Position numbers and translations under genes: made by a program | The notes under the pieces: generated by a model | Seen by the model: the letters and a program-made list of their open reading frames with translations, nothing else | What the model was told of the DNA's origin: nothing | The model's database searches: none | Source of the DNA: Vulgatibacter incomptus | GTDB taxonomy: Bacteria; Myxococcota; Myxococcia; Myxococcales; Vulgatibacteraceae | Direction of reading: 5' to 3' | Assembly: GCF_001263175.1 (NCBI RefSeq) | Contig: NZ_CP012332.1 | Span: 3,614,220 to 3,678,219 of the forward strand | DNA: 64,000 bases | Shown here: positions 6,330-61,463 of the stretch, piece after piece | Layout: the number at the start of each line of letters is the position of its first letter | Numbering within the stretch: position 1 is the first letter of the stretch

Positions 6330-6478
6330 GGATTGATCGAAGCGCCCGATCGGAGTCGGTCCTGACGGAATTCAGGGAGGTGCGAAACGGGGCCGTGTCC
6401 ACGAGCCGATCGTTCCGGCCTCGAGCTTGACACGTCGATCACCGCGTGAGACTGGCGCGCACTTCGAACCTGGGATCG

Positions 6479-22257: not shown

Positions 22258-22400
22258 TTACACAGCGAGTGCGCGCACCGGAGCGCGAGCTCCGCGGGAC
22301 ACCGTGGGTTGTGAAAGCTGCGGGCGCTCGGCCAGCTCGCCCGCCGTGAGCGGGCCGTGCAGGCGGATCCTCAGCAGCAGCGACACTCTTCGTGACGAGT
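22258..22400 (-). pseudogene. About 100-bp fragment of a MarR-type HTH gene (homologous to nt 39020-39125 of the HTH-GNAT gene)
   Basis: The minus-strand translation '...LLLRIRLHGPLTAGELAERPQLSQPTVSRGA' compares with 'LLMTIRLHGPITVGELAERLQLAQPTVSRAL' at 39.1 kb. The DNA is also similar. There is no full ORF. Confidence 0.4.
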
Positions 22401-22512: not shown

Positions 22513-23748
22513 ATGGAGAGAATGCGACCCGGACCAACGAAGAACGACAAGCGATCCCTCCCGCCCGGCGGCACCCCTGACCTCCAGGACGCCACTTCGG
22601 ATCCTCGCGGCAAGGCCAGGAGCGCGCGCTCCGACAGGCCCAAACGTCGGAGGCGCAGGGTGCGCCTGCCAGGCCCGACCTTCCCCGGGTCCCCCGCTGG
22701 GATCGAGAGCACGCCGCTCGTCGACGTACCCCCTGAGCCAGGTGCCGTCTCGATCAGCTGCGTCGACTATGGGCCCGACCGCGCGAGCGCCTTCGACGTT
22801 CCGGACCTGGAGGCCTTCCTCTCGCGGCCCAGGCCCGAGTGGTCGGCGGTGCGGTGGGTGAACGTGGCTGGCCTCCATCCCCAGGTCATCAACCGATTTC
22901 GCCAAGCCTACGGCTTCCACACGCTCGCGGCCGAGGACGCACTGAAGGTCCCGCAACGCCCCAGGGTCGAGCCATATCCCGACTTTCAGTTCATCGTCGC
23001 CAGCATGTTCCGGCAGGTGGACGGCAAGTTCACCTCGGGTCAGGTCAGCGTCTTCTTCTATGGGAACATGCTCCTCACCTTCCAGGAGGAACCGGACGGC
23101 GCCGAGGCGTGGTCGACGATCCGGCAGCGTATCCAAGCATCAGGCTCCACCCTGCGACAGGGTGACGCCGGCTTTCTCCTCTATTCGATCCTCGACGCCC
23201 TGATCGATCACATCTTCCCGGTGGTCGAGCACTACGGTGACCTCTTGGAGACGCTGGAGGATCGGATCATCGAAGAGCCAACCACCGCACTCTCGGGGGA
23301 GCTCCACTCCGTCAGGCGAAAGCTGCTGGAGCTTCGGCGGATGATCTGGCCGATTCGGTTGATGATCCACGACCTGCAATCCAGCGATTCCCCGAACCTC
23401 TCGTCGACGGTGCGCACCTATCTTCGGGATGTGCACGAGCACTCGGTCCAGCTGATCGACGTGATCGAGACCTACCGTGACATGGCCTCCGGCATGATCG
23501 AGCTCTACCTGTCCGCAGTCTCGTACCGGATGAACGAAGTGATGAAGGTCCTCACAATCATCGCCACGATCTTCATCCCGATCACCTTCCTCGCGGGCGT
23601 GTTTGGCATGAACTTCAAGGTGATGCCCGAGCTGAACTGGGAGTGGGGCTACGCGCTCTTCTGGCTGATCTGCATCGTCACCGTCGTCGGGCTGATCCGG
23701 TTTTTCCGCCGCAAGGGCTGGATCGGGGAGGGCCAGGTGTCGAAGTAG
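22513..23748 (+). CDS. corA: CorA-family magnesium/cobalt transporter (with an Arg/Pro-rich N-terminal extension)
   Basis: The C-terminus reads 'IIATIFIPITFLAGVFGMNFKVMPELNWEWGYALFWLICIVTVVGLIRFFRRKGWI', which includes the GMN motif and two TM helices. The start codon is uncertain. Confidence 0.75.
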   Translation: MERMRPGPTKNDKRSLPPGGTPDLQDATSDPRGKARSARSDRPKRRRRRVRLPGPTFPGSPAGIESTPLVDVPPEPGAVSISCVDYGPDRASAFDVPDLEAFLSRPRPEWSAVRWVNVAGLHPQVINRFRQAYGFHTLAAEDALKVPQRPRVEPYPDFQFIVASMFRQVDGKFTSGQVSVFFYGNMLLTFQEEPDGAEAWSTIRQRIQASGSTLRQGDAGFLLYSILDALIDHIFPVVEHYGDLLETLEDRIIEEPTTALSGELHSVRRKLLELRRMIWPIRLMIHDLQSSDSPNLSSTVRTYLRDVHEHSVQLIDVIETYRDMASGMIELYLSAVSYRMNEVMKVLTIIATIFIPITFLAGVFGMNFKVMPELNWEWGYALFWLICIVTVVGLIRFFRRKGWIGEGQVSK

Positions 23749-24084
23749 CTGCGCTCGACACGACCGGGGAGCAGCTCCATACGATCGGTCCCTCCACATC
23801 CGTCGGCGCTCGAGCTCGGCGTCGCTCGGCCGGCATCACGGCGGTATTCTGGCGGCGTGTCCTGCGATCGCTGGTGGCACCAGCGGACGACAAGACCGTC
23901 TTCCTCGAACCGCGAGTGCCGCAGATCGTCGGCACCCGCTTGCTTGCCGGGAGCCCCGATGCAGCTCGGACTCGACCTCGCGCACCCCGGGACCACCGAA
24001 GATCAGCTCTCTTGCAGTGGCTTTGGATCGACGGCCGTCTTACGACTCGATGGATCGCTGGATTTCCATATGATGTTCGCCGCT

Positions 24085-24250
24085 AGGTCCACGAACGCGC
24101 CGCCCTGCTCGCTTCTTCGGCTGGGAGAGGAGCGAACGAAGGAGAGCTGCTTTTTCGTGGATGAAGTGCGCGCGGAGGCTCGCCGGTTCCCCTTGCCAGG
24201 GAGATTGCCGCCTGCTCGCTCCTCGGGGCGCCTGCGCACGCGCTGGCAGT
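24085..24250 (+). repeat. Copy A of a roughly 150-bp non-coding repeat (about 85% identical to 30275-30440)
   Basis: Manual alignment of the conserved core: gccctgctcgct(t)cttcggctgggag.g.agcgaacga.ggag.gtgcttt..gtggatgaagtgcgcgcggagg.tcg.cggtt.c...gccaggg...ttg.cgcctgctcgctcc.cgggg.gcctgcg.acgcgc. Confidence 0.5.
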
Positions 24251-24339
24251 AGGTCCGATGAGGGAGTTCCTGCGTGGGTAAGGGCCGAAGTGGGCTTGAT
24301 CCGCCCTCGTGGACCTCCTGTGGGAGGGTGCGGTGAGTG

Positions 24340-27300
24340 TCACGGGTGCCGTGCAACCACCGCGGAGTCGAGCAGCACGAAGAGATCGGAGAGATCCTGT
24401 CGAGCCTGCGCGGGCGCCGAGCCGAACACGACGGCGACGTAGCGGAGGAGTTTTCCGCCGACCGTACGTTCGATGATCGCGCAGTCGTGACTGAAGCTGT
24501 CGTCGCCGAAGCCGATCTTCGAGGCGAGCGTGTCCGGCGCTCGCCCCACAGCGGTGAGGGCGGTTCGTGCGTAACTGCCGATGCCACCACCCATCTGATT
24601 CATGAGCGCACGCATCTCGGTCGACGAGGAGCTACTCAGGAGCTTCCCATTCGCCATCGCGGTAAGAAGTCGCGACACCTGCAACGCGTTGCCGACGAAG
24701 TTGCTCTTGCTGCGCCCTTGCGCCGTGGCCCACCGAGGTGTGAGGGCGATCCCCGCTGCGTTCGAGGCCTTCTCCGCTGCGTTCCTTACCCAGTCGTGAC
24801 CGTCGTAGTCTCCGGAGATCCACAGGCCTTTGCTCGTCGCCGCATCGAAGTATCCGGACCGGGCGAGCACTCCGTTGAGATAGAAGTAGCCAAGCGCGAG
24901 GATGCAATTGCTCGCTGCTTGATTGTTCGACCAGCGCATCATCGTGCGCATCCATTCGTGGAACAGGCCGGTCGGAGCTCCGTTCTCGCCGACGGCATCG
25001 ATGCTCGCGTCGGAGACCATGGGTGAGGTGATTGAGAAGTCGACCACTCCCGTCGGAGAGACCGTGAAGATCCGGTCGAATTTGGGAACGGTCACGTCCT
25101 GGTTGTTCCCAAAGCTCGTCGTCGACTTCGTGGGGAACATCGCCTTGAGCTTCGGTCGCCACGCGTTCTCGATGACCCCGAAGATCGCGGGCGCCGCGAA
25201 GGGCTCACCGTTCGCCTTCGCCGCATCGACGAACGCCTGCACTCGTTCTCGCAGCGCGAACGCCGCGTACATCACGCAGAGTTTCATGAGACTGCCGACG
25301 AAGACCATCTCCTCCTCGTGAAGGCCGGCGAACGCCGCGCTCGCCGGAGCGCCTGTGACGTCGGCCAGTCCCGCGCAGAGATGGTTCGCCGTGCTGACGG
25401 TGACAGGCGCGAACGCCGTGGTCATCGAAGGGTCGTTGCGCACGAGATTGACGACCCCAGGGGGAGGGAACGGATCGATCGCGTCGGCCCACGCCGGAAC
25501 GGGGACCGGTGCCGCGCCGCCGCCCATCGCGGCGCCACCACCACCACCACCTCCTCCCCCGCCATCGGCCGCGCCGCCCTTGAGGGCCGTCTTGACCAGG
25601 TCGCCCGCGGGCATGCCGAGCGGACCGTAGAGGGCCTTGTTGAACGCCGCGGCGCCGTCACCCCCAATCGCGCCCGCTATCGGCGCCGACGTCCCCGCCC
25701 CGCTCTCCCCGCCTCCGCTCCCGCCGCCGCCGCCGCCGATCGGAACGCTGCCGTCGGCCCCCGCGGCAGCGCTCGCCGCAGCCGCGTCGCGTTTTTCGCC
25801 GTGTGCGACCCGCGCGGCTTCCGCAGTGACGCTCTGATTGGCGCCCCCGCTCGACGGCGCACCGAGCGCCGCCTTCACGATGTCCGCCGCGATCTGACCC
25901 ATCGCTACCGACTTCTGCATCTCGGCGCGCATGTTCGAGCTCGCGACCTCGGCGGCCGCAGTCGCAGCGTCGATCGTGCCCTGCGCCACTTGACCCGCGA
26001 GATTCTGCGTGCCGGCCAAGCCGCTCATGTCGCGGAACATGTTTCCGTTCGACACGGCCGTGAGCACCGCTCCGAGCCCGGCCGGATCGGGCAACGACGT
26101 CGGCGTGACGATGTTGAGCACGGGCTGACCGAGCTGTCCCGGTCGGAGGTCCTCCGAGGTGGCGCGCGAGCCGGTCGAGACCGGCGCGATCTCTGGCAGT
26201 GTGAGCGGGATCGGAGAGTCCTGCCAGTTCCAGAAGCGCGTGTACTCGAGCTTCTCGGCGCTGTTGGATCGACCCAGCACCGCCTCGGCGAACACTCCAT
26301 TCGTGGGAATGGGGATGACGCGCGAATCCGGCTCGACTCCAAAGTCGAAGCCTCGGTTCTTCAACAGGTCGCTCCACGTCGCCTGGCGCCCGTCTTCCGT
26401 CACCCCCGAAGGCTCATCGGGATCGACGGGGGCGCGCAGGACGAGGAAGTTGCCGGCCACAGTGAGCACCTTGGGCTCGACCTGATCGATCACGGGGCGA
26501 CCGTTCCAAGTGAATTCGCTGAGCAGGAGCACGAGCGTCGCACTGTCGAGGGACCGGGCGATGGCCTGCGCATAATGCGCGTTGTTGGCCTGCAGATGGG
26601 CCAAGAGCTCGCGTCTACGATCAGCCTGGTCGGTGCGGAACTTCGCGACCTGAGTGACGGCCGTGCCGAGCTCCACTGGCACGGAGGGCAGCGTGAAACG
26701 GCGGCCGAGATAGGCGCACAACAAGGTCATCTGGCCCGATCCCTGACTCCCTTCGCTACGCGACGCGTAGATCCCATCGAGCTCACCCATGCGCACGCCC
26801 GCTGGGAGATCGACGCGGCCATTCACGACCGTGAGATCGACGTCCGCGGCAGCCGAGTCGACGCGATCGAGGCGCAGATTGGTCACCGTGACGCCCTCGA
26901 AGCTGATCGCGAGGAGCTCGGTTTCATCCGGCACGAACAACGAGTCGGAGCCGGGTCGCACGATAGGGCGCGCGACGAAGCGCGAAGCGCTGGCGAGCTC
27001 GGCTCGGTCCCAGGCACGCACACGAATCCCTACAGTTTCGGGCGGGACCTCGGTAGCCGTGGCAGGCGCGACCGTCGCCGCGGCCGTCGGCTCGCTCTTC
27101 GCGATCATGCTTGCACGAAGAACGGCACTCATCTTCACCAGATCGGGACGTCCAGAGGGCACGACGATGCGCGAGCTCGTTGCGCTGATTTCGACGGCAG
27201 ACGTGTCGTCGAGCAAGAGCTCGAGCGCGCGGCGGTTCAGCGCCGCGCGCCCGAGAGCACCGCGGAAGCGCTCGACGTATTGCGCACCCAAGGGGCCGGC

Positions 27301-28611
27301 GAAGTCGAGGCGCTCCATCGGAATGAAGAGACAGCGCTCGGCTCGATGCAAGCGCGTCGCCACCCGATACACCTGAACGATCTCGTAGTATTGAATCGTC
27401 AGCGCGTGCATGTGGTTGTAGTTCGCCACGATGCGGGTGCTGACCTGCTCGTGTTCGCTCTGTGAGACCTCGCGCACCGCGGTCGCGCGGCGATTGCGGA
27501 CCGACGTGCTGTGCTGCTCCGTGCGGTCGTTGATGTTCTGCTGCATGGAAGCCGCCACCGAGCGATTGCCCACCGACCACGAGGAGGAGCTCGCCGTCGT
27601 GTCCGTCGTGGCCCCCTGCAACGACCCCGAGGCGTCCCCGCTCGCCCAGAGACTGGTCAGAAAGCCCGTTCCGACGGAAGCTTGCGCGCTGTAGCTCGTG
27701 GAATCCGCATGGGAGGAGGAGGTCGATCCGCCTTCTTGCATTTCGCTCGCTACAGCGTCCTGGACTTCGCTGAGCGCACGCGTGTGAAGCGCCGCGGAGG
27801 CGAGCTCCTCGGTCTCGCTGATGGTTTCCGACGATGTCGCGCTCGTTCGACGAGCCCAGTCGACGATCGCGATGCGGGTCGCCTCTCCTGGAGCGAGGGC
27901 GAGCGAATGCAGGAGGTGACCGAACGTGATTCCCTGCGCGTACCACGACTGTGAGTACGTCATCAGCGCGCCGATGGCGGGCTTCGTGAAGCCGTTCCGA
28001 TCGGCGAGCACCGCGTCGAGCGAGACGCCACCGTCGAGTGGCCTCGTTCCCTGCCCCGTCGTCTCGTTCATCTGCAGCATGACGAGTGTCGTGTAGTAGA
28101 CGCGCTCCGTCGGAAACTCGCCAAAGGTCGGGCGCAGCTTCTCGGTCAGGATCGCGTCCCGGTCGTCCATGCTGCCGCCAATTGAGCCGCTCACGAGTCG
28201 CTTGGCGAATAGATAGGGAGGCCACTGCGCGAAGTCGCGAAGGGTCGTGACGTTCAACGCCTGGCTGATCGCCGCGGCTTGAGCCGGGTCGAGCATGCGG
28301 AGCGCAGCGAGAGGCAGCGTGCCCATCGCCTCCACCGACTCGATCGCGATCGCATCGTCCAACAGGTCGCCGGGCGCCATTCCGTACTGGGCGGCAGCCC
28401 CCATCTCGTCCTTCGCGAACGCGGCGACGCGCGCGGCGGCGAAGAGCCGCGAGCAGCCGAGATCGAAGATCGTCTTGATGCCGAGAGGTGCCAAAGCCGT
28501 GGCGGCATCCGGCGACACGGAAAGCAGTTCGGTGAAAGGCTGTTTGAGCAACTCGGACGCATCGAGATGCGCGCTCGTCGAGCGCACGAATTCGCCAGTA
28601 CCGTTCATCGC
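24340..28611 (-). CDS. Giant multidomain protein (about 1420-1449 aa). It has an N-terminal roughly 1050-aa region of unknown function with a Ser/Thr-rich alternating segment, then a poly-Gly linker, then a C-terminal serine-hydrolase domain of the beta-lactamase/transpeptidase superfamily.
   Basis: The ORF is continuous, with no signal peptide. The Gly-rich linkers are 'GGGGGSGGGESGAG' and 'GGGGGGGGGGAAMGGG'. The C-terminal domain has 'GSLMKL' (SxxK), a downstream 'YLN' (YxN) and 'KIGFG' (KxG), spaced like class C/PF00144 enzymes. An alternative start is at 28689. Confidence 0.7.
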   Translation of the reverse strand, partial: AMNGTGEFVRSTSAHLDASELLKQPFTELLSVSPDAATALAPLGIKTIFDLGCSRLFAAARVAAFAKDEMGAAAQYGMAPGDLLDDAIAIESVEAMGTLPLAALRMLDPAQAAAISQALNVTTLRDFAQWPPYLFAKRLVSGSIGGSMDDRDAILTEKLRPTFGEFPTERVYYTTLVMLQMNETTGQGTRPLDGGVSLDAVLADRNGFTKPAIGALMTYSQSWYAQGITFGHLLHSLALAPGEATRIAIVDWARRTSATSSETISETEELASAALHTRALSEVQDAVASEMQEGGSTSSSHADSTSYSAQASVGTGFLTSLWASGDASGSLQGATTDTTASSSSWSVGNRSVAASMQQNINDRTEQHSTSVRNRRATAVREVSQSEHEQVSTRIVANYNHMHALTIQYYEIVQVYRVATRLHRAERCLFIPMERLDFAGPLGAQYVERFRGALGRAALNRRALELLLDDTSAVEISATSSRIVVPSGRPDLVKMSAVLRASMIAKSEPTAAATVAPATATEVPPETVGIRVRAWDRAELASASRFVARPIVRPGSDSLFVPDETELLAISFEGVTVTNLRLDRVDSAAADVDLTVVNGRVDLPAGVRMGELDGIYASRSEGSQGSGQMTLLCAYLGRRFTLPSVPVELGTAVTQVAKFRTDQADRRRELLAHLQANNAHYAQAIARSLDSATLVLLLSEFTWNGRPVIDQVEPKVLTVAGNFLVLRAPVDPDEPSGVTEDGRQATWSDLLKNRGFDFGVEPDSRVIPIPTNGVFAEAVLGRSNSAEKLEYTRFWNWQDSPIPLTLPEIAPVSTGSRATSEDLRPGQLGQPVLNIVTPTSLPDPAGLGAVLTAVSNGNMFRDMSGLAGTQNLAGQVAQGTIDAATAAAEVASSNMRAEMQKSVAMGQIAADIVKAALGAPSSGGANQSVTAEAARVAHGEKRDAAAASAAAGADGSVPIGGGGGGSGGGESGAGTSAPIAGAIGGDGAAAFNKALYGPLGMPAGDLVKTALKGGAADGGGGGGGGGGAAMGGGAAPVPVPAWADAIDPFPPPGVVNLVRNDPSMTTAFAPVTVSTANHLCAGLADVTGAPASAAFAGLHEEEMVFVGSLMKLCVMYAAFALRERVQAFVDAAKANGEPFAAPAIFGVIENAWRPKLKAMFPTKSTTSFGNNQDVTVPKFDRIFTVSPTGVVDFSITSPMVSDASIDAVGENGAPTGLFHEWMRTMMRWSNNQAASNCILALGYFYLNGVLARSGYFDAATSKGLWISGDYDGHDWVRNAAEKASNAAGIALTPRWATAQGRSKSNFVGNALQVSRLLTAMANGKLLSSSSSTEMRALMNQMGGGIGSYARTALTAVGRAPDTLASKIGFGDDSFSHDCAIIERTVGGKLLRYVAVVFGSAPAQARQDLSDLFVLLDSAVVARHP

Positions 28612-28910
28612 CATCCCCCGGGCGAGTCTACCGATTCGCCGCGCATGCCAGTCAGATCGAGCTTGGCAGCGCCGCCGCATCGTACCCACGGCACGCGTCG
28701 CTCACCAAGCGACCGGCGCGTCGTGACGAGCGGGCTCGTCGAGAGCACGACGCTCGACGCTCGAGGGTGTTGGGAACGGTACAATGGCAGACGCACCCGG
28801 AACGTCGAGCTCGGACCGCCGGGTCTCGATCCGGCTGACGTCGGGGAGATCGTCCACAAGCCGATTCAGGCGGCGCTCGAGATCGAGCGCATCTTCCTCT
28901 CTGCGCGCGA

Positions 28911-29540
28911 CTACTTCGAGCTCGGAGTACGAGGCGTGGGCCGCTCGAACGCCTCTCGCGCTCGCTCGACTTGGGGCCAGATCACGCACTCCGGGATGTG
29001 GTCGTTGAGAAGCCCCATCGCCTGCATGAAGGCGTAGACGGTCGTCGGGCCCACGAACTTCCACCCGAGCTTCTTCAGCGCATCGGAGAGCGCGTTCGAC
29101 TCCTGCGAGGTCGACTGGGTCTGCGCGTGCTCTGGGCGATGTGACGTTGGCTCGTACGCCCAGACGAAGGCTGCCAACGAGCCTTCCTTCTTCACGAGCT
29201 CCTTGGCCTTCTGCGCGTTGTTGATGACGGCTTCGATCTTGCCACGATGTCGAACGATGCCTTCGTCGCCGAGGAGCCGCTCGACGTCGCGCTCGGTGAA
29301 CCGAGCGATTCGATCGAAGTCGAAGCCGTGAAACGCGCGTCGAAAAGCTTCGCGCTTTGAGAGGATCGTCCGCCAGCTCAACCCAGACTGAAAGCCCTCG
29401 AGGCTCAGCTTCTCGAAGAGCCGGCGATCGTCTGCAACGGGGAATCCCCACTCGTGGTCGTGGTACTCGAGGAACTCCGGGGCGGCCGCGCTCCATCGGC
29501 AACGCGCCAATCCGTCGGGGCCGATGAAGGTGCTGGTCAT
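28911..29540 (-). CDS. tag: DNA-3-methyladenine glycosylase I
   Basis: The hallmark 'EYHDHEWGFPV' is present, with 'LSLEGFQSGLSWRTILSKREAFRRAF' and Zn-binding Cys/His positions. Confidence 0.85.
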   Translation of the reverse strand: MTSTFIGPDGLARCRWSAAAPEFLEYHDHEWGFPVADDRRLFEKLSLEGFQSGLSWRTILSKREAFRRAFHGFDFDRIARFTERDVERLLGDEGIVRHRGKIEAVINNAQKAKELVKKEGSLAAFVWAYEPTSHRPEHAQTQSTSQESNALSDALKKLGWKFVGPTTVYAFMQAMGLLNDHIPECVIWPQVERAREAFERPTPRTPSSK

Positions 29541-29669
29541 GCAGCCCCCACGAGGAAGTACAGGTAGCGTTCGGGCAACTCGAGGTGCGGGCCTCGTCGC
29601 CAAGCTCTCCCGCTGCACCGCTCGCCTTCCTCGCGATGCTCCACCGCCTCTCGCCACTCGAGCTTTCGG

Positions 29670-30173
29670 TTAGCCATACTGGAAGCCGGGTTTGCTCTGC
29701 CCGATTTCTATGATGTAACCGTCGGGATCGCGGATGTAGCATCGCGTCTCGCCGTACTTCTCTATTGGTTCTGTAAGAAACGTCGCTCCCCTACTCCGCC
29801 AGAGTCTATAGCACGCATGAATATCTGCGACGCGGATATTCATGAAGCTACTGACCTCATCAGGGTCGGGAGGGGGTCGGAGCGTCACGGTCGGCTTGTC
29901 GGGTGTTGGACCGCCCCCGACGTTGAGAATAAGCCAAGTGTTTGCGATCTTGATGTACGGCGGCGCGCCTTCCTTGTCGCCTCTGCTCACGACTTTGCCG
30001 CCGAACACCTTTTCGTAGAACTGAACGGATCGATCGAGGTCGGACACGGTGAGAAAGTGCGTGACGGTGAACCCCTCGTGCGGCGGCATCTGAAAGCTCG
30101 ACTGCTCGACTCGTACTTCATCCATTTCTGGCTCCAATCCATCCACGACGCGAGCTTGACGTTTGACGGCCAT
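29670..30173 (-). CDS. VOC (glyoxalase/bleomycin-resistance/dioxygenase) family protein, in a lower-GC patch
   Basis: 'FTVTHFLTVSDLDRSVQFYEKVFGG...YIRDPDGYIIEIGQ' is the VOC fold. Codon usage is noticeably AT-richer than its neighbours. Confidence 0.75.
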   Translation of the reverse strand: MAVKRQARVVDGLEPEMDEVRVEQSSFQMPPHEGFTVTHFLTVSDLDRSVQFYEKVFGGKVVSRGDKEGAPPYIKIANTWLILNVGGGPTPDKPTVTLRPPPDPDEVSSFMNIRVADIHACYRLWRSRGATFLTEPIEKYGETRCYIRDPDGYIIEIGQSKPGFQYG

Positions 30174-30274
30174 GCGGGGTCAGTGGAATTGCCGAGTCAT
30201 CAATCTATCCATCTGCACGCAGCCGCCAGCTTGCTTCAAAGTATTCATGGGGCAATTTTCGCGCACCACTTGAC

Positions 30275-30440
30275 CATCATGCGGCCCTGCTCGCTCTTTC
30301 GGCTGGGAGCAAAGCGAACGACGGAGGGTGCTTTTGAGTGGATGAAGTGCGCGCGGAGGATCGGCGGTTTCCGTAGGCCAGGGTGGTTGTCGCCTGCTCG
30401 CTCCACGGGGGGCCTGCGAACGCGCGGCAACCTCCGCGGG
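30275..30440 (+). repeat. Copy B of the roughly 150-bp non-coding repeat (see 24085-24250)
   Basis: Same orientation as copy A. Together they bracket the giant-protein / tag / VOC segment. Confidence 0.5.
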
Positions 30441-30520
30441 ATCGCAAGGCCGTCGTAGTGGACGCCAGGCGACACGTGGTATCGGGCTACGTGCGCTCCT
30501 CAAATGCCCGCGAGGAAACG

Positions 30521-31138
30521 ATGACGAAGCTCGACTACAAGAAGACGCTCAAAGACCTGTACGCGCCGCCATCCAAGAATGTGGTTCGGGTCGTCGTGCC
30601 TCCGCTCCGGTACCTGATGATCGACGGCCACGGAGACCCGAACACGGCTCCCGCCTACCAGCGCGCCGTCGAGTGCCTGTACAGCGTCTCGTACACGATC
30701 AAGTTCGCCGTCAAGCGTGGATCGGAAGGCACCGACTACGGCGTCATGCCGCTCGAGGGGCTCTGGTGGGCCGACGACATGGCGTCGTTCTCAGTCGAGA
30801 GGAAGGCCGACTGGAAGTGGACGATGATGATCTTGCAGCCCGACCTGGTCGACCGAGAGACGGTCGAGACCGCTATCGGGGACGTTCGGCGCAAGAAGCC
30901 GCTCGCCGATCTCGACCTGCTGCGCTTCGAGACGTTCGACGAAGGCGTGTGCGCACAGACTATGCACCTCGGGCCGTTCTCCGAGGAAGGCCCGACGATC
31001 GCACGCGTGCACGAGTACATTGCCGCGAACGGCAGCTTGCGGGGCAAGCACCACGAGATCTACCTGTCCGACATCCGAAAAGCCGACCCGAGCCGCTGGA
31101 AAACGGTGATTCGTCAACCCATGAAGGAATCACGGTAG
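30521..31138 (+). CDS. GyrI-like small-molecule-binding domain protein
   Basis: The RBS is GAGGA. 'GPFSEEGPTIARVHEYIAANGSLRGKHHEIYLSDIRKADPSRWKTVIR' is a typical GyrI-like C-terminus. Confidence 0.75.
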   Translation: MTKLDYKKTLKDLYAPPSKNVVRVVVPPLRYLMIDGHGDPNTAPAYQRAVECLYSVSYTIKFAVKRGSEGTDYGVMPLEGLWWADDMASFSVERKADWKWTMMILQPDLVDRETVETAIGDVRRKKPLADLDLLRFETFDEGVCAQTMHLGPFSEEGPTIARVHEYIAANGSLRGKHHEIYLSDIRKADPSRWKTVIRQPMKESR

Positions 31139-31298
31139 CGCGCACGCGCTCATACGACCGCGAGCGTCCTGGTGCGGCAGAGGGGAGGAGGATGTCTCCA
31201 TCTGCTGGATACACCCCCACCAGAGAGTACGGACTCCCACGGTCCGTCGAACTCTCCCACCTGCGACTACCGTTCGACCCGCTTCACCATCCCCTGGC

Positions 31299-32704
31299 TC
31301 AGTCACGTACCTCGGGGAGGACGCTGTTGACTGCCGCCCGACCCTTGTCCGTCGCGGTGACCGTCTCGAGGAGCTGGACGATGTTCGAGCCGAGCTTGGC
31401 GCCGAAGGTGTCCATCAGCGACCGGGCCCCGCTCTGCACATCGGAACCGTTGGCGACGATGGTCATCTTCGCTGCGGACATCGCCTGGGCCAGCGCGATG
31501 CCCACGGCTTGGTCGGCCTTCACCTGCTCGATGGTCACCAGGTACTTCTGGTAGCCCTCGTCCTTGCCGATCTTCTCGGCCAAGGTGATCTGCGCGGTGA
31601 CTGGCGCCATCAGCATCTTTTCCTGGGCCTCGGCGTTTGCCTTGCCCTTGGCCGCGATGCCTTCCGCTTCCCTCATCGTCGCCGCCAGCGCGCCCTCCGC
31701 CTTGGCCGCGATTCCTTCCGCTTCCCTCATCGTCGCCGCCAGCTCGCCCTCCGCCTTGAGCTCGACGACCTTGCGCGCTGCCTCCGCGTCGACCACCTGC
31801 ATCTCAGCGGCCCTCCGCGCGGCGATGATGGCGGTCTCCTTCTGGATCTCGGCCTTCTTAACCTCCTGGACCTTCATGACCTCCATCTCCCGCTCGGCGG
31901 TGGTCTTGGCGGAGGCCTGGACCTCCTGCTTGGCCTTCTCCCGCTCGATACCGACGATGCGCTCCTGCTCCGCGGTACGGATGCCGATCTGCTGCTTCTT
32001 CTCCTGCTGACGAAGCTCGATCTCCCGGGAAGCCTCGATCTCGGCTGCTTCCGCGGCCCGGTTGTTCTCCGCCACCGCTACACGGGACTCCTTGTCGATA
32101 CGGGATTTGTCCTTCTCCATGATCTTGGAGATGACCTCGGAGCCCCTCGCATCCCGGATGTCCATGAACTCGATGGTCTTCACGGTCGTCACGCCCCACT
32201 CCCTGAGCTGAGAATCCACCTCTCCGGTGAACGCTTGCCCAAGGGATCCGCGGGCTTCCATGATCTCCTCGAGGGTGTGGGTTGCCAGGATGCGTCGCAC
32301 GGAACCCTGAAGGATGGCCTTCAACTGATTGGCGAGCTCCTGGTAATGGTCGATCCGCGTAGCTGCCATCGACGAATCGCTGATGCGGAAGAACGACGTT
32401 ACGTCCACCACGAAGGGCAGACGGCGGGAATCGTACGCCTCGTAGTCCGTGAGGCTGACGCTGAAGTTGGCTTCAGGCAGGCGGCTGACGACGACACCGA
32501 TGATCGGGAGCCAACTCGGCCAGGCGTAGTAGACGTTGCCAGACTTGCTGCTGCGGCCGTAGGAGACGGCTCCCGCCTTCGACTGGACGATGTGCACCAT
32601 GTTGGTGGGTACCACCGTACGCAGCTTGAGGATGGTGATGGTGAGGACCGCGAAGGCGAACAGAGGGACTACGATCACACCAACCGCAACAACTGGAAAC
32701 ATAC
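31299..32704 (-). CDS. Flotillin / SPFH (band-7) family protein
   Basis: N-terminal membrane hairpin 'MFPVVAVGVIVVPLFAFAVLTITILKL', an SPFH core, a long Glu/Ala-rich coiled coil with a 48-bp tandem duplication (EAEGIAAK.AEGALAATMR x2), and a flotillin C-terminus. No NfeD partner was found upstream. Confidence 0.8.
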
Positions 32705-32994
32705 CGTCTTCTCCGACGTGAATTTCAACTTCATGTACTTGTTCTACCCGTGGATCGAACGGCCTTCGTCGAGATCCGCCCGCACCGTAGGTCGGATCGC
32801 CAACGCCCTCGGTTGCTTCGGGGCCATGGCCGATCTGACCACTATTCAACCATGGAGATCCATACGCCGGGGAAACTTCTCCATCACTGAGCGTCCTATC
32901 GGCCGGACGGGGACGCTCAAGCCCGCGAGAAGCCTCATCTCGGCACGCGGCGAAACGGCTTGCCCCGCTGGGGCGCTCGGGCAAGGCTGGTGAC

Positions 32995-34140
32995 ATGGCG
33001 CACGCCGCCCCTCCGAAGACGCGCCGTTGGGTGCCCCTGCTCGCCGTGGCGTCGCTGGCCATCCTCGCGACGACCGTCTTCGCCGTTGGTTTGAACCCCT
33101 CCACCACGGAGCACCTCTCGGTCATGGGCGATGACGATGCAGTCCAGGTGCACATCGGCGAGCAGAATCGACGAGGCACCACCAAGGCTGACCACATCCC
33201 CGCGTACCGCGCGCGGTTCGACCGCGACCCGACGCCCGAGAACGGCTTCCTCCTTGCCCGCCTCCTCCCGGCAGCGGAGTCGGAGGCTCTGGTCCTCCGC
33301 CTCCTCGCCGATCACCCCTACAACCCGTGGTTGCTCCGCCTGGGCGCAAGGCACCACCTGCGCGCGAGGCGCTGGAGCGAGGCGGTGCGCGCCTACGAGA
33401 GGCTCGTCCAGGTCTCGCCCGCCGACATCGTCAAATCGTTCGAGCTGCGCGCCACCGCTCTCGCGGGCGCAGGCCGTGCGGAGGAAGCTCTGTGGCTTGC
33501 GGACCGGCTTCCTCTCGGTGGCGCTCACTTGAGGGTGGCGCTCACCTACGCCCGACTGGTCAAGCTCGTCGGCGCCGGGGACCCGAGCGGCTACGTAAAG
33601 CGTGTGTCCCAAAGCGAAACGCTGCCGCCTGGCTTCCTCGCGAGCTTCGAGACCCTCACCGGAGGCGACGCCCTAGCCGAGATCACCGCCATCGCAGGGG
33701 CGCCCGAGCGCAAGGCCCGTATGGTCGAGCGCGAGGCGCTGCGCAAGCCGTGGTCGGCTCTCGCGCTCCTCGCGCAGGCGCCCGAGGGGACCGCCGGCGA
33801 GCTCGACCTGGACGTCGCGGTCCTCCTCCTCGGCGCCGCTGAGGGCGCGAAGCTTTCCCGCGTACGCGACCAGCTGGTCTCCGCGCTCGAGGAACACGGC
33901 CCGCCGTTCCTCGACTACATCCGCACCGGAAGAGAAAACTCCGCCACCGACGAGCTTCCGCCCGCGGGCCTCGCCGCCATCCACGTTGCCCGCGCGTTGA
34001 CATTGGATGGGAGCGAGCGCGACGCCCTGCTCTCACTCGCGAGGCAGGAAGACCCGCTCCGCGGCGTGCCCAGTCTCGCGGCGGAGGAGCTCGAGGGAAA
34101 GGCTCCCAGGAGCACCCCTTCCAGCAGCAAAGGGAGCTGA
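32995..34140 (+). CDS. Membrane-anchored TPR-like / hypothetical protein
   Basis: Signal-anchor 'WVPLLAVASLAILATTVFAV'. It is Ala/Leu-rich and helical-repeat-like. It is divergent from flotillin. Confidence 0.55.
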   Translation: MAHAAPPKTRRWVPLLAVASLAILATTVFAVGLNPSTTEHLSVMGDDDAVQVHIGEQNRRGTTKADHIPAYRARFDRDPTPENGFLLARLLPAAESEALVLRLLADHPYNPWLLRLGARHHLRARRWSEAVRAYERLVQVSPADIVKSFELRATALAGAGRAEEALWLADRLPLGGAHLRVALTYARLVKLVGAGDPSGYVKRVSQSETLPPGFLASFETLTGGDALAEITAIAGAPERKARMVEREALRKPWSALALLAQAPEGTAGELDLDVAVLLLGAAEGAKLSRVRDQLVSALEEHGPPFLDYIRTGRENSATDELPPAGLAAIHVARALTLDGSERDALLSLARQEDPLRGVPSLAAEELEGKAPRSTPSSSKGS

Positions 34141-38280: not shown

Positions 38281-39243
38281 TCAGCGTGACGTGCTCGGCC
38301 GGTACGACATCGCCACGTCGCACCGCTCGTAGCGCGCCCCGAACTGGCGCATGATCTCGGCGTCGTGCACGAAGCCGACCTTCTCGTAGAGATGGATGGC
38401 CGCCGCGCACTTCTCGTTGGTCAGCAGATAGACCTTGGCGAAACCCAGGCTGGAGGCCCGCTCCAGGGTCTTGGCGAGCAGGAACTCGCCGATCTTCAGG
38501 CCCCGGGCGCTCTTCAGGACGCCCATCTTGGTCAGCTCGACCCAGCCGTCCTTGGACACCATCAGGGCGCAGGTCCCGACCACGCCCAGCTCCGGCGTCT
38601 CGGCGAATAGGACCATCCCGCCCTTGTCGAGGATCAGCTCGCGCGGCTTCGACAGGAGCGCGATGTCGTTCTCCTCGAGGGCGAACATGTCCTCGATCCA
38701 CTCCGCGTTGATCCGATAAAACGCGTCGGCCAGGTCGTCGGAGAAGTCGCGCGCCCACATCGTGGGCGGACCGGCGGCCTCGATCCGGCTCAGCAGCGAG
38801 GCCTCGGCAAGCCGCGCCTCCACCCTGGCCAGGCTCTGCATGAAGTCACCCGATAGCCCCTCGATCAGCGAGGCGGCGGCGGGCTCGATGCGCGGCAATA
38901 GCTGCGTCTGGATGCGGGCCACCAGGGCCTCGCCGCTCTCCGTCAGCGCCAGGCGTTTCGAGCGCTGATCGCCCGGCGAGGGCCGCGCTTCGACGAAGTC
39001 CTTGAGTGTCCCGAGAGCGCGGGACACCGTGGGCTGGGCAAGCTGCAGGCGCTCGGCCAGCTCGCCCACCGTGATCGGGCCGTGCAGGCGGATCGTCATC
39101 AGCAGCGACATCTGGGCCGGCTGGACCGGAAGGTCCAGCGATCGGGCCACATCGGCGGCGTCGGCCTGCATCCGCTCGGCCAGGCGCTTGAGCCTGCTGC
39201 CCAGGAAGCCCACGCCAAGCCCTGCCAGAAGATCGACTTCCAT
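38281..39243 (-). CDS. Bifunctional MarR-type HTH regulator / GNAT N-acetyltransferase
   Basis: GGAGG RBS. The N-terminus 'MSLLMTIRLHGPITVGELAERLQLAQPTVSRALGTL' is an HTH. The C-terminus 'LGVVGTCALMVSKDGWVELTKMGVLKSARGLKIGEFLLAKTLERASSLGFAKVYLLTNE' is GNAT. Confidence 0.75.
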   Translation of the reverse strand: MEVDLLAGLGVGFLGSRLKRLAERMQADAADVARSLDLPVQPAQMSLLMTIRLHGPITVGELAERLQLAQPTVSRALGTLKDFVEARPSPGDQRSKRLALTESGEALVARIQTQLLPRIEPAAASLIEGLSGDFMQSLARVEARLAEASLLSRIEAAGPPTMWARDFSDDLADAFYRINAEWIEDMFALEENDIALLSKPRELILDKGGMVLFAETPELGVVGTCALMVSKDGWVELTKMGVLKSARGLKIGEFLLAKTLERASSLGFAKVYLLTNEKCAAAIHLYEKVGFVHDAEIMRQFGARYERCDVAMSYRPSTSR

Positions 39244-39408
39244 GCCCGCCTCCAATCCATAGCGCGCTATATAACTGAGGGGGAGCAACTGCAAGAGGGC
39301 CGAGCATCTGAACTGCGCGCCTCACCCACAGGTGGGCAAGGCCTCGGGCGGCGGGCGGTGGAGACAAACCGTCTTCAATTCAAAACATGTTGCAGGCAAC
39401 ATGTCCCC

Positions 39409-42058: not shown

Positions 42059-42444
42059 CGGCCGCACCTCCAGGACCGCGCTTGCCGCGTCTCGTGATTG
42101 GATGCCGACGGAGGCGACCAAGCGGTTGCTCGGGAGAACTGCGGCGGCGCTCGTGGTGAAGATGACCGCGTCCGCGTGCCCGATTTCGATCGCTCTTCGC
42201 TGGGCGCGATCCTCGACGGCTGGCTGAGCGGCCCGCCTAGTCGAGCCGCTGATCCCGCGGACGGGAGATCTTTGAGGACCTAGAACATCAACCTCGAAGC
42301 CTACATGGGCGACGCTCTCCGCGTCCTCGAAGGATCGGTACCTCGAGCTTGCTCCGAAATACTGGCGCGACCGCCTGCCGCCCTTTGGGATCTTGTCCCC
42401 GCCGGGTAATCTGTGCCCGCCCCAACCGCCCGGAGGCCGTCCGC

Positions 42445-43962
42445 TTGAACCCCGCCTCGCCCCCCTTGCGCCTGTTCGATCAGGTTCAGGCCTTTCAGTA
42501 CGTCGTGGCGGAGAAGGCCCCGATTTACCGGGCGATCGTCCAGGTCTTCTCCGAGGCCCGGCACCACTACGTCATCGAACTGCGACCGGCCGAGGTGCTC
42601 GACCGGATTCGCGCCGCCGGGATCTTCGTCGCGCTCGGGCCGGACGAGACGCTCGACTACTACCTCGACATGCTCGTGAAATGGGGCAACCTCGCCTCGG
42701 CGCAAGACTCAGCGACCGTGACGAGGCTCGAGGACTTCTATCGCAAGCGACTCCTCTATCGGCTGACGCCAGCGGGAGAGGCGGCACATCGAGCGGTCGC
42801 AGAGGTCGAAGATGCGATCGGCCGCTCGGGTAGGCTCCAGGCTTCGATGCTCGTCAAGATCCGCGACGAGCTCCGCGAGCTCACAGGTGACCGTGAGCCA
42901 TCGGAGCTGGTCGTCGGCCTCCACGACCTGAACGCGGCGTTCGAATCGCTCACGGAGGAGGCAAACCGATTCATCGGTGACCTCGATCGGCCAACTGGGG
43001 CCAAGCGGATGGACGAAGAGCGCTTCACCTTCTACAAGCGGGCGCTCCTCGCGTACATCCACCGCTTCGTTGGCCAGCTCCGACTCCTGGGAGACGAAAT
43101 CCGCGCGTTGATCGATGGGATCGACGCTGAGGCGCTGATCGATCGCGCGCTGCCCGGTGCCGAGCTCCCGCCGGCACGGGACGACGCGGATCCACGGGCG
43201 GACTGGCGCGCGGAGTGGCTGGCGCGGTGGACGGGGATCCGCGCATGGTTCGTGGGCACCGCCAGCTCGATGCCGACCGTGGAGCGGCTCGCGGCCGTCG
43301 CGGTCGAGGCGGTCCTGGGCCTCACGCGCTCGCTGGGTCGGCTGAGCGGCGCGAGCGCCCGCTCGATGGATCGCGCCGCGGACTTCCGCGTCCTTGCGCA
43401 CTGGTTCGGCCGTTGCCCTGACGATCGCGCGGCGCACGGCCTCTGGCACGCGGCGTTCGGCCTCTCGACGGGGCGACACTTCCACCTCGAGTCCAACGTC
43501 GAAGGCGCGCCATCCTGGTGGGATGCGGCCCCAGTTGAGGTCCCGGTGCGGCTGCGCGAGCGGGGCCAGGTCGCCGTCGCCACCGGCCGGGCGGGCGCGA
43601 TCCCGGACTACAGCGCGGCGCGGCAGTGGCTGGAGCAGAAGCGCAGGCAGGAGCGGGCGCAGCTCGACGCGGCGATCCGCCGGCTCTCGGGCGAGTTCGA
43701 GCTGCGGGACGTCGGGCGCCTCGACCCCGCCGAGTTCGATCTCTTCCTCGCCCTCCTCGATCAGGCGCTCGCCGCCCCGAAGGAGGGCGACGGCTCGCAG
43801 TCGGCCCGCACGATCGACGGGCGCGTCAGGATCCGCCTGACGCCGCCAAAGGATGACGAGCTCGTGGTCCTCGAGGCGCCGGGAGGCCGACTATGGTGCC
43901 GCAACCACCACCTCGAGGTGTCCGCCGTCGAGGGCGCGGCCTGGCGCTCGGAGGCCCGATGA
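42445..43962 (+). CDS. jetA: Wadjet type II JetA-like protein (TIGR02677/DUF2397-type), first gene of a four-gene operon
   Basis: GGAGG RBS plus TTG start. It is about 505 aa. Its stop overlaps the next start (ATGA). Position and size fit the conserved TIGR02677-78-80-79 neighbourhood. Family assignment is by context and was not verified by search. Confidence 0.6.
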   Translation: MNPASPPLRLFDQVQAFQYVVAEKAPIYRAIVQVFSEARHHYVIELRPAEVLDRIRAAGIFVALGPDETLDYYLDMLVKWGNLASAQDSATVTRLEDFYRKRLLYRLTPAGEAAHRAVAEVEDAIGRSGRLQASMLVKIRDELRELTGDREPSELVVGLHDLNAAFESLTEEANRFIGDLDRPTGAKRMDEERFTFYKRALLAYIHRFVGQLRLLGDEIRALIDGIDAEALIDRALPGAELPPARDDADPRADWRAEWLARWTGIRAWFVGTASSMPTVERLAAVAVEAVLGLTRSLGRLSGASARSMDRAADFRVLAHWFGRCPDDRAAHGLWHAAFGLSTGRHFHLESNVEGAPSWWDAAPVEVPVRLRERGQVAVATGRAGAIPDYSAARQWLEQKRRQERAQLDAAIRRLSGEFELRDVGRLDPAEFDLFLALLDQALAAPKEGDGSQSARTIDGRVRIRLTPPKDDELVVLEAPGGRLWCRNHHLEVSAVEGAAWRSEAR

Positions 43963-50440: not shown

Positions 50441-52572
<2,132 letters not shown>

Positions 52573-61307: not shown

Positions 61308-61463
61308 GACGACCATCATATGCCCATATAGGCACGCGTCAAGTCGAGATGGATCAGGGACGCGTACCGGCTCTGCTACATCCGGGGGCCCGAAGGACTC
61401 CTCATGGGGCTCGCGCCTCGCTTCCTCTTGCATTCCACCAATCTGCGCTCGATACTGAGCCAC

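What the first reader, a model, noticed from the sequence alone, without database searches (positions are those of the whole stretch)
24085..30440. Two about 85%-identical 150-bp non-coding direct repeats bracket the giant-protein / tag / VOC segment (about 6 kb)
Copies at 24085-24250 and 30275-30440 are in the same orientation. Both are intergenic and share a conserved core (gccctgctcgct..cttcggctgggag...agcgaacga..gtggatgaagtgcgcgcggagg...gcctgctcgctcc). The enclosed block includes a low-GC VOC gene. This suggests either an insertion delimited by att-like or recombination sites, or a dispersed structured repeat or sRNA family.
Basis: seen in the sequence. Interest (0 to 1): 0.6.

Follow-up and report, generated by a model that had tools for sequence, protein, structure and literature searches.

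The report
Two diverged 150-bp non-coding repeats
Two copies of a 150-base non-coding sequence, 84% alike, really do flank a 6-kb patch of partly foreign genes in Vulgatibacter incomptus, but nothing shows they are attachment sites or a structured RNA, so they look most like an old local duplication drifting neutrally.

Summary
Copies at 24099-24248 (E_A) and 30281-30429 (E_B) lie in the same orientation. They are 84% identical over 151 columns (E 6e-37), with sharp edges and unrelated flanks. The window comes from Vulgatibacter incomptus (Myxococcota).

The element (E) is non-coding. It has three 1-nt indels, and its substitutions fall 8/8/6 over codon phases.

- Nothing supports an att site. 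I found no tRNA and no integrase or transposase in about 45 ORFs, and the longest identical run is only 22 nt.
- Nothing significant supports a structured RNA. There is no Rfam match, and the folds are no more stable than shuffles. The minus-strand covariation hint has P of about 0.07.

E is absent downstream of CorA and upstream of the GyrI-like gene in every relative I fetched. An exact 20-mer scan of genome, metagenome and viral collections gave only chance hits.

The enclosed block is a mosaic, not a unit. The giant gene is 71-74% identical in DNA to homologues in Pseudomonas sp. and an unidentified assembly, and it sits in other contexts there. The VOC gene lies on a low-GC islet.

My best reading (about 0.4) is a local duplication relic linked to rearrangement. 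A genome-specific dispersed repeat (about 0.3) cannot be excluded, because the rest of the source genome could not be searched. Interest is low.

The parts
24099..24248 (.). Repeat copy E_A (150 nt, 68.7% GC). It lies in the 591-nt gap between the stop of CorA (+) and the stop of the 1422-aa gene (-).
   Evidence: blastn 84.1% over 151 columns, E 6e-37; nhmmer 156 bits; alignments.
30281..30429 (.). Repeat copy E_B (149 nt, 67.8% GC). It lies in the 347-nt gap between the divergent starts of the VOC gene (-) and the GyrI-like gene (+).
   Evidence: Its right edge meets the conserved GyrI-like leader. Its left edge meets the low-GC VOC islet.
24157..24178 (.). Longest stretch identical in both copies (22 nt, GTGGATGAAGTGCGCGCGGAGG). 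Its twin is at 30338-30359.
   Evidence: A run this long is expected by chance with 25 differences in 151 columns (P = 0.32).
24104..24116 (.). Internal direct repeat of the element, CCTGCTCGCT(Y)C, repeated 107 nt further on at 24211-24223. In E_B the two sites are 30286-30296 and 30393-30403. The first ~40 nt and last ~35 nt of E resemble each other.
   Evidence: Local alignment of the two halves against shuffles gives P = 0.014 and 0.019.
24084..24090 (.). TAGGTCC, which recurs at 24250-24256, so a 7-nt direct repeat flanks E_A. E_B has no counterpart. It could be a junction duplication or chance.
   Evidence: My rough estimate is about 1-5% by chance (inference, chosen after seeing the data).
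24340..28608 (-). Enclosed gene 1: a 1422-aa protein. It has an uncharacterised N-terminal part (about 65% of the query length), Gly-rich linkers and a C-terminal beta-lactamase-like serine hydrolase domain. It has been horizontally exchanged.
   Evidence: Pfam PF13354 matches the C-terminus only. There are 530 homologues carrying differing precomputed Pfam domains. DNA identity is 74% to Pseudomonas sp. and 71% to L035. No NCBIfam or PDB match.
28911..29657 (-). Enclosed gene 2: DNA-3-methyladenine glycosylase I (Tag). The true start is probably downstream of the ORF's first GTG.
   Evidence: PF03352, E 6.5e-70; TIGR00624.
29670..30280 (-). Enclosed gene 3: a VOC/glyoxalase-family gene (29670-30173) plus its 107-nt upstream spacer. 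Together they form a low-GC islet (56% and 52% GC) that ends at the left edge of E_B.
   Evidence: PF00903; GC3 0.67 against 0.81-0.86; segment GC values.
22513..23748 (+). Left neighbour, the CorA Mg/Co transporter. In four relatives, homology to the window ends at the CorA stop codon and no E follows.
30430..31138 (+). Right neighbour, the GyrI-like gene (30521-31138) with a ~91-nt conserved leader or promoter region (30430-30520). Two other genomes carry the same module with the same left edge but without E.

Best explanation
E is a non-coding stretch of V. incomptus intergenic DNA that was duplicated once, locally and in direct orientation. The duplication accompanied the rearrangement or insertion events that built the mosaic between CorA and the GyrI-like gene. 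Possible routes are a single-crossover (Campbell-type) or template-switch insertion that used or copied E, or a tandem duplication later split by incoming genes. Since then the two copies have drifted apart neutrally. They now mark the edges of the 6.2-kb block but do no detectable work, and they are too diverged to recombine efficiently.

Shown: the repeat is real, non-coding, sharply bounded, restricted to this lineage, and evenly diverged. The block is mosaic and partly foreign. No recombinase or tRNA is present.

Inferred: that the duplication was a single local event tied to the insertion, and that the copies are neutral.
For: - The copies are real and sharply bounded, with unrelated flanks.
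- They are non-coding: three 1-nt indels shift every reading frame, substitutions fall 8/8/6 by codon phase, and there is no GC3 signal.
- Divergence looks unconstrained. The differences are spread evenly, and the longest identical run of 22 nt has P = 0.32.
- Folding is not better than shuffles on either strand, with z from -0.14 to +2.4. From the energies, the ratio of consensus to single-sequence energy is about 0.64 on both strands. Covariation is not significant.
- The event looks young. K between the copies is 0.166. That is about half the 4-fold-site divergence (0.25-0.30) to the nearest sampled relatives. Those relatives lack E after CorA (L019-L022) and before the GyrI-like leader (L024-L034).
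- The neighbourhood is rearranged and mosaic. Synteny with relatives stops at the gene ends of CorA and the GyrI-like gene. The giant gene sits in other contexts in two other genomes and has no flanking repeats there. The VOC gene lies on a low-GC islet that abuts E_B.
- A second short duplicate lies on the other side of CorA. It is a sharply bounded, direct copy of 93 nt (22293-22385), 91% identical to part of a MarR gene at 39018-39110. So short local ectopic duplications do happen in this region.
- A 7-nt TAGGTCC repeat flanks E_A, which would fit a junction scar.
Against: - No empty site was found, so insertion between single copies is not demonstrated.
- The block looks assembled from at least two acquisitions (VOC islet versus giant and tag). 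A single event therefore cannot explain everything between the copies.
- The copy number of E in the rest of the 4.35-Mb genome is unknown. More copies would favour a dispersed family.
- On the minus strand, an 11-bp long-range helix and a 5-bp helix keep pairing through 7 of the 22 substitutions, including two double changes. The simulation gives P = 0.07-0.085, which hints at constraint.
- E has an internal direct repeat, an organised feature that a random piece of spacer need not have.
Confidence: 0.4

Rival explanations
1. E is one member of a dispersed intergenic repeat family specific to V. incomptus. Such a family could be a small non-autonomous mobile element or a repeat spread by recombination. 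On this view the two copies merely lie near each other, perhaps because such repeats gather in, or promote, rearranged regions.
For: - E is a discrete unit with sharp ends at both sites.
- Size (150 nt) and 84% identity are typical of bacterial interspersed repeats (general knowledge).
- E has an internal modular organisation with a 107-nt-spaced direct repeat.
- A 7-nt direct repeat flanks E_A and could be a target duplication.
- E_B sits exactly between two independently bounded modules, the low-GC VOC islet and the GyrI-like module.
Against: - There is no third copy in the other ~58 kb of the window, nor in about 190 kb of loci fetched through protein homologues (L019-L036), of which about 110 kb come from CorA or GyrI-like relatives.
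- Exact 20-mer scans of the genome, metagenome and viral collections gave only chance hits. This test is weak: under even divergence, a copy 85% identical would keep the 20-mer only about 4% of the time.
- There are no terminal inverted repeats, no stable palindrome, and no flanking duplication at E_B.
Confidence: 0.3
2. E is transcribed from the minus strand as a structured RNA. It would be either two paralogous small RNAs, or a 5' leader of the VOC-tag-giant transcript (E_B) with a relic copy at its 3' end (E_A). A central CGUUCGCU segment could pair with either of two AGCGAGCAGG segments, which would give alternative conformations.
For: - The minus-strand consensus fold keeps all 37 pairs in both copies.
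- In the 11-bp helix, A-U changes to U.G and two G-C pairs change to G.U. In the 5-bp helix, G.U changes to C-G and G.U changes to A-U.
- The G.U changes pair only on the minus strand. The plus-strand fold shows no double change.
- E_B is correctly oriented and placed, 107 nt upstream, to be a leader of the VOC gene.
Against: - In the simulation with randomly placed substitutions, P = 0.07 for the covariation term and 0.085 for compensated pairs, so the signal is not significant.
- Minimum free energies are not below shuffles (z = +1.56 and -0.14 on the minus strand).
- The two copies' own best folds differ.
- There is no Rfam family and no promoter-like or terminator-like site in or next to E.
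- E_A follows the giant gene and is followed by no gene on that strand.
- E is not conserved in relatives.
Confidence: 0.12
3. E is a duplicated piece of regulatory DNA, carrying an operator or promoter. E_B would control the divergent VOC and GyrI-like genes through a protein that binds the repeated CCTGCTCGCT motifs. E_A would be a redundant or decaying copy.
For: - E_B lies in a divergent promoter region between two stress or xenobiotic-type genes.
- The 10-nt motif occurs twice per copy at a fixed 107-nt spacing and is identical in all four instances.
Against: - E_A lies between two convergent gene ends, with nothing to regulate.
- GyrI-like relatives keep their own ~95-nt leader without E, so E is not needed for that gene.
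- There is no sigma-70-like promoter match in the region.
- Motif conservation is explained by common descent.
Confidence: 0.1
4. E_A and E_B are attL and attR of an integrated element (genomic island) that entered by site-specific recombination.
For: Direct repeats bracket genes of foreign origin.
Against: - About 45 ORFs scanned across the 64-kb window include no integrase, recombinase or excisionase.
- There is no tRNA or tmRNA target.
- The copies are 84% identical, with no long identical core beyond 22 nt.
- The enclosed genes are not linked in other genomes.
- There is no match to phages or plasmids.
Confidence: 0.03

Closest known systems
Direct repeats left by homologous (Campbell-type) integration or local segmental duplication
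   Same: There are two same-orientation copies of a chromosomal non-coding segment flanking inserted or rearranged DNA. No dedicated recombinase is present. The copies diverge with time.
   Different: No donor, circular form or empty site was identified. 150 nt is short, 16% divergence is high, and the DNA between the copies seems to have more than one origin.
Bacterial interspersed intergenic repeats (REP/BIME, ERIC, BOX, MITE-like elements such as Correia)
   Same: Size class (about 100-200 nt), intergenic position, 80-90% identity between copies, sharp ends, and modular internal organisation.
   Different: E has no terminal inverted repeats, no stable hairpin or palindrome, no consistent target duplication, and only two copies known. 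It was not found in any other genome.
attL/attR of integrative elements (for example the actinomycete elements pSAM2 and SLP1, which as I recall have att sites of about 58 and 112 bp in tRNA genes; not checked here)
   Same: Direct repeats bracket acquired genes.
   Different: There is no integrase, no tRNA and no identical core, and the cargo is not a coherent element.
Paralogous small RNA genes in neighbouring intergenic regions (for example PrrF1/PrrF2 and OmrA/OmrB; examples from memory)
   Same: Two similar ~150-nt non-coding sequences lie a few kb apart, with a weak strand-specific pairing signal.
   Different: There is no promoter or terminator, no thermodynamic signal, no conservation outside this genome, and no Rfam match.

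Membership tests
att sites of an integrase-driven integrative element | A tyrosine or serine recombinase gene lies inside or next to the bracketed DNA. | tested here: not met
   Pfam scans of about 45 ORFs over the whole window found none.
att sites of an integrase-driven integrative element | An identical core is shared by attL and attR, commonly the 3' end of a tRNA or tmRNA gene. | tested here: not met
   There is no tRNA or tmRNA in the window. The copies are 84% identical, and the longest identical run of 22 nt is no longer than chance predicts.
att sites of an integrative element | Related genomes have an empty site with a single copy. | tested here: inconclusive
   Relatives have neither E nor CorA-GyrI adjacency, so no empty site can be defined.
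MITE-like non-autonomous transposable element | Terminal inverted repeats. | tested here: not met
   The inverted-repeat search on both copies with flanks found none at the ends.
MITE-like non-autonomous transposable element | Target-site duplication at each copy. | tested here: inconclusive
   A 7-nt TAGGTCC repeat flanks E_A only. E_B has nothing comparable.
MITE-like or other interspersed repeat family | Many copies dispersed in the genome. | not testable with these tools
   Look-ups of two proteins encoded in this window (the GyrI-like protein and P0001) found no gene on record, and I had no other way to reach the rest of the genome. Only exact 20-mer scans of public collections were possible, and they gave chance hits only. 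No third copy was found in the window or in 36 loci.
REP/BIME/ERIC-type palindromic repeats | A stable imperfect palindrome or hairpin. | tested here: not met
   Minimum free energies are equal to or weaker than dinucleotide shuffles on both strands (z from -0.14 to +2.4).
Known structured RNA family (Rfam) | A match to a covariance model at its gathering score. | tested here: not met
   There were 0 matches at gathering score for the whole window. Only chance-level hits appeared at E up to 10 around both copies.
Structured non-coding RNA in general | A conserved secondary structure supported by compensatory changes and by stability. | tested here: inconclusive
   The minus-strand consensus has 2 double and 3 single compensated pairs and no broken pair, but simulation gives P = 0.07-0.085. 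Stability is not above shuffles. Two sequences give little power.
Integron attC / gene-cassette site | An imperfect inverted repeat with GTTRRRY core sites, cassettes in one orientation, and intI nearby. | tested here: not met
   There is no such inverted repeat. The neighbouring genes are in mixed orientation. No integrase was found. I checked the core motif by eye only.

The most novel reading that the evidence does not exclude
E is a previously undescribed minus-strand RNA element of Vulgatibacter. Its central CGUUCGCU segment would switch between two AGCGAGCAGG partners. It would act as a leader that controls the VOC-tag-giant transcript (E_B), with a second copy at the transcript's 3' end (E_A), or as a pair of paralogous small RNAs.
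Probability: 0.1. Interest if true: 0.45.

Novelty: new member of a known kind. Interest (0 to 1): 0.2.

Why it matters
As it stands, this matters little. It is a lineage-restricted, apparently neutral pair of short non-coding repeats at the edges of a rearranged, partly foreign gene patch.

It is useful as a marker of how this part of the V. incomptus chromosome was assembled. The same neighbourhood holds a second short ectopic duplicate, a horizontally exchanged giant gene and a low-GC VOC islet.

It would matter more if a whole-genome search showed a multi-copy family, which would be a new myxobacterial interspersed repeat. It would also matter more if transcript data confirmed the minus-strand RNA.

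Tried and rejected
- **Rfam.** At gathering score on the whole window there was nothing. At E up to 10 around each copy there were only chance hits.
- **Single-sequence folding of both copies on both strands.** Neither strand folds better than shuffles.
- **Consensus folding and pair counts.** Plus strand: no compensatory change. Minus strand: a hint only. A 600-replicate simulation gave P = 0.07-0.085.
- **Exact 20-mer core scans.** GTDB genome representatives gave 4 loci, JGI metagenomes gave 14 loci and IMG/VR gave 0. Every hit stopped within 20-28 nt, so all are chance.
- **blastn of each copy in distant mode.** One copy against plasmids and the other against phages gave no match.
- **Translated-frame trick.** A phmmer search of one minus-strand frame of E_A against 1.84 billion protein representatives, meant to catch spurious ORFs over other copies, gave 0 hits.
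- **Coding hypothesis.** Six-frame translations, the indel pattern, codon-phase GC and the substitution phase all reject it.
- **Pseudogene of a neighbouring gene.** tblastn of the VOC, Tag and GyrI-like proteins found no second copy in the window and no VOC or Tag match in the fetched loci.
- **Extension of homology into the flanks.** Rejected. The equal 91-nt spacers to the right of both copies are a coincidence.
- **Orthologous loci through CorA** (L019-L022). No E.
- **Orthologous loci through the GyrI-like gene** (L024-L034). No E.
- **Loci of giant-gene homologues** (L023, L035, L036). No E, and no flanking repeats around the two homologues checked, L023 and L035.
- **Look-ups of the window's own proteins.** No gene with these products was on record, so the rest of the genome could not be reached.
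- **Promoter and terminator scan.** Nothing in or beside E.
- **By-eye checks** for LexA-box, sigma-54 and ECF-type promoter motifs. Nothing convincing, and these were not formal tests.
- **Literature search for Vulgatibacter incomptus.** None of the 15 listed titles concerns repeats or small RNAs. I opened none of the papers.
Full report
**1. Observation**

The two copies are real. blastn of the two intergenic regions gives one alignment, 24099-24248 against 30281-30429. It is 84.1% identical over 151 columns with E 6e-37. There are 22 substitutions (8 transitions, 14 transversions) and three 1-nt indels.

The 22-nt core occurs exactly twice in the window even with 3 mismatches allowed, and never in shuffles. 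Similarity stops abruptly on both sides, and the flanks score no better than shuffled sequence. An nhmmer profile of the two copies, run without filters, finds no third copy in the 64-kb window. I call the element E, with copies E_A and E_B.

**2. Source and gene context**

Three window proteins have 100% hits named Vulgatibacter incomptus, on a 4,350,553-bp contig.

| Coordinates | Strand | Gene |
|---|---|---|
| 22513-23748 | + | CorA |
| 24099-24248 | | E_A |
| 24340-28608 | - | 1422-aa protein |
| 28911-29657 | - | Tag glycosylase |
| 29670-30173 | - | VOC/glyoxalase |
| 30281-30429 | | E_B |
| 30521-31138 | + | GyrI-like |
| 31299-33197 | - | flotillin-like |

E_A therefore lies between two convergent gene ends, and E_B between two divergent gene starts. 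No single cis role (leader, terminator, operator) fits both copies on either strand.

**3. E is non-coding**

The indels shift every frame between the copies, so no frame gives a conserved peptide. Substitutions fall 8/8/6 over the three phases, and there is no GC3 pattern. A phmmer search of one translated frame against 1.84 billion protein representatives found nothing.

**4. RNA tests**

- No Rfam family matches at gathering score, and only chance-level hits appear at E up to 10.
- Minimum free energies of both copies on both strands are equal to or weaker than dinucleotide shuffles, with z from -0.14 to +2.4.
- RNAalifold on the plus strand gives 45 pairs and no double change.
- On the minus strand it gives 37 pairs, none broken.
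  - An 11-bp long-range helix absorbs four substitutions (A-U to U.G; two G-C to G.U).
  - A 5-bp helix absorbs three (G.U to C-G; G.U to A-U).
- The G.U changes would be C-A mismatches on the plus strand, so the hint is specific to the minus strand.
- I kept E_A fixed and placed the same 22 substitutions at random columns 600 times. The observed covariation term was reached in 7% of trials, and the number of compensated pairs in 8.5%.
- The two copies' own best folds also differ. The ratio of consensus to single-sequence energy, is about 0.64 on both strands.
- I rate the RNA reading as not excluded but unsupported.

**5. DNA-element tests**

- There is no tRNA or tmRNA.
- About 45 ORFs scanned across the window include no integrase, recombinase or transposase.
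- There are no terminal inverted repeats.
- E does have an internal imperfect direct repeat. Its first ~40 nt resemble its last ~35 nt (CCTGCTCGCT...GCGAACG, spacing 107 nt; P about 0.015 against shuffles).
- A 7-nt TAGGTCC repeat flanks E_A but nothing similar flanks E_B.
- The differences between the copies are spread evenly. A longest identical run of 22 nt or more is expected 32% of the time, so nothing suggests conserved blocks.

**6. Other genomes**

Exact scans for a 20-nt core word returned 4 loci in the GTDB species representatives, 14 in JGI metagenomes and 0 in IMG/VR. None extends beyond 20-28 nt, so all are chance. There was no blastn match of E_A in plasmids or of E_B in phages.

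These scans are insensitive. Under even divergence, a copy 85% identical would keep the word only about 4% of the time. Look-ups of the window's own proteins found nothing on record. The copy number of E in the rest of V. incomptus therefore remains unknown, and this is the main gap.

**7. Orthologous sites**

CorA relatives at 72-89% DNA identity (L019-L022) match the window only across CorA. Homology ends at the stop codon, different genes follow, and no E is present.

GyrI-like relatives (L024-L034) match across the gene. In L026 and L033 the match also covers about 95 nt upstream (window about 30430-30520). That stretch ends exactly at the right edge of E_B.

L026 and L033 share that same left edge with each other. 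So it is the edge of a 'leader + GyrI-like' module that sits in a different context in each genome. It is not evidence that E moves.

On the other side, the VOC gene and its 107-nt upstream spacer form a low-GC islet (56% and 52%, against 65-69% around it). This islet ends at the left edge of E_B.

**8. The block is not a unit**

The 1422-aa protein belongs to a large family (530 hits). Most hits cover only the N-terminal ~65% of the query, and their precomputed Pfam domains differ: PF13354 (as here), PF00264 (named tyrosinase by NCBI), PF10030 (named DUF2272), PF00691 (named OmpA-like), PF01510, PF07737, PF12385, PF11579 and PF12671.

Its DNA is 74% identical over 2.9 kb to a Pseudomonas sp. 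gene and 71% identical to L035. Homology starts at the start codon. In those genomes the neighbours are different, there is no tag or VOC gene, and no repeats flank the gene.

**9. Age**

Jukes-Cantor distance between the copies is 0.166. Four-fold-site distances to the nearest sampled relatives are 0.30 (CorA, L022) and 0.25-0.29 (GyrI-like, L024 and L026). If E is neutral, the duplication post-dates those splits, which fits its absence there.

**10. A second short duplicate**

A 93-nt segment at 22293-22385, in the spacer upstream of CorA, is a sharply bounded copy of the helix-turn-helix part of the MarR-GNAT gene at 39018-39110. It is 91% identical and in the same orientation. Short ectopic direct duplications therefore occur on both sides of CorA.

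**11. Verdict**

The repeat is real. It is a non-coding, lineage-restricted, evenly diverged pair.

| Reading | Probability |
|---|---|
| Relic of a local duplication tied to the rearrangements or insertions that built this mosaic | about 0.4 |
| Genome-specific dispersed repeat | about 0.3 |
| Minus-strand RNA | about 0.12 |
| Regulatory DNA | about 0.1 |
| att sites | about 0.03 |

One BLASTN of E against the complete V. incomptus chromosome would settle the first two.

Noticed in passing
window 24340-28608 (-); homologues P0002-P0120; loci L023, L035: The 1422-aa 'giant' protein has an N-terminal part (about 65% of its length) with no Pfam, NCBIfam or PDB match. It is followed by Gly-rich linkers and a beta-lactamase-like hydrolase domain. 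Homologues (530 at E <= 1e-5) carry differing precomputed Pfam domains (PF00264, PF10030, PF01510, PF07737, PF12385, PF00691, PF11579, PF12671). That looks like a polymorphic toxin or effector layout. The named hits come from scattered taxa (Pseudomonas, Thiobacillus, Sphingomonas, Variovorax, Mesorhizobium, Pseudarthrobacter, Lysobacter, Gemmatimonadota), with 71-74% DNA identity to two of them. The family seems uncharacterised.
   Followed up: partly
window 22293-22385 and 39018-39110: A sharply bounded 93-nt fragment in the spacer upstream of CorA is 91% identical, with no gaps and in the same orientation, to the helix-turn-helix region of the MarR-GNAT gene (38281-39321, -). It is a second short ectopic duplicate in the same neighbourhood as E.
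   Followed up: partly
window 30430-31176; L026 2733-3450; L033 883-1602: The GyrI-like gene travels with a ~95-nt upstream leader or promoter region (conserved ...GCAARGYCGYCGTGG...CCAGG.GACACGTGGTATCG...). The left edge is identical in three genomes, while the DNA upstream of it is unrelated in each. It behaves as a discrete module.
   Followed up: partly
window 29670-30280: The VOC/glyoxalase gene plus its upstream spacer forms a 611-nt low-GC islet (56% and 52% GC; GC3 0.67 against 0.81-0.86 in neighbours). It is probably a recent, separate acquisition. It has weak NCBIfam similarity to glyoxalase I and fosfomycin-resistance thiol transferases, far below their cut-offs.
   Followed up: partly
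window 42253-50373 (+): A four-gene cluster carries DUF2397, DUF2398/DUF4194, an SbcC/RAD50-like ATPase and DUF3323+DUF2399. From memory, this domain set matches a type II Wadjet (JetABCD-like) anti-plasmid system; I did not check it against PADLOC. The long ATPase reading frame carries an in-frame TGA at 47198-47200 (...GPGGEES*VSTNG...). That could be a pseudogene, two genes or a sequencing error.
   Followed up: partly
window 6427-8583 (+) and 50743-52572 (-): Two paralogous EGF-domain proteins contain 120-nt (40-aa) tandem repeats. They lie in inverted orientation about 42 kb apart and are about 70-76% complementary over several hundred nt. The inverted pair brackets most of the window, including the region studied here.
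   Followed up: no
window 31646-31753 (inside the flotillin-like gene, -): A perfect-register tandem duplication of 54 nt (18 codons), 96% identical, lies inside the coding sequence. The translation shows the repeated ...MREAEGIAAK... segment.
   Followed up: no
L029 1-168 versus window 61446-61613: In a relative (Logan SRR12908354), a sequence 90% identical to the window's HTH-protein gene at about 61.4-61.6 kb lies only about 3.4 kb from the GyrI-like gene. In V. incomptus the two are 30 kb apart. This points to large rearrangement or insertion between these lineages.
   Followed up: no
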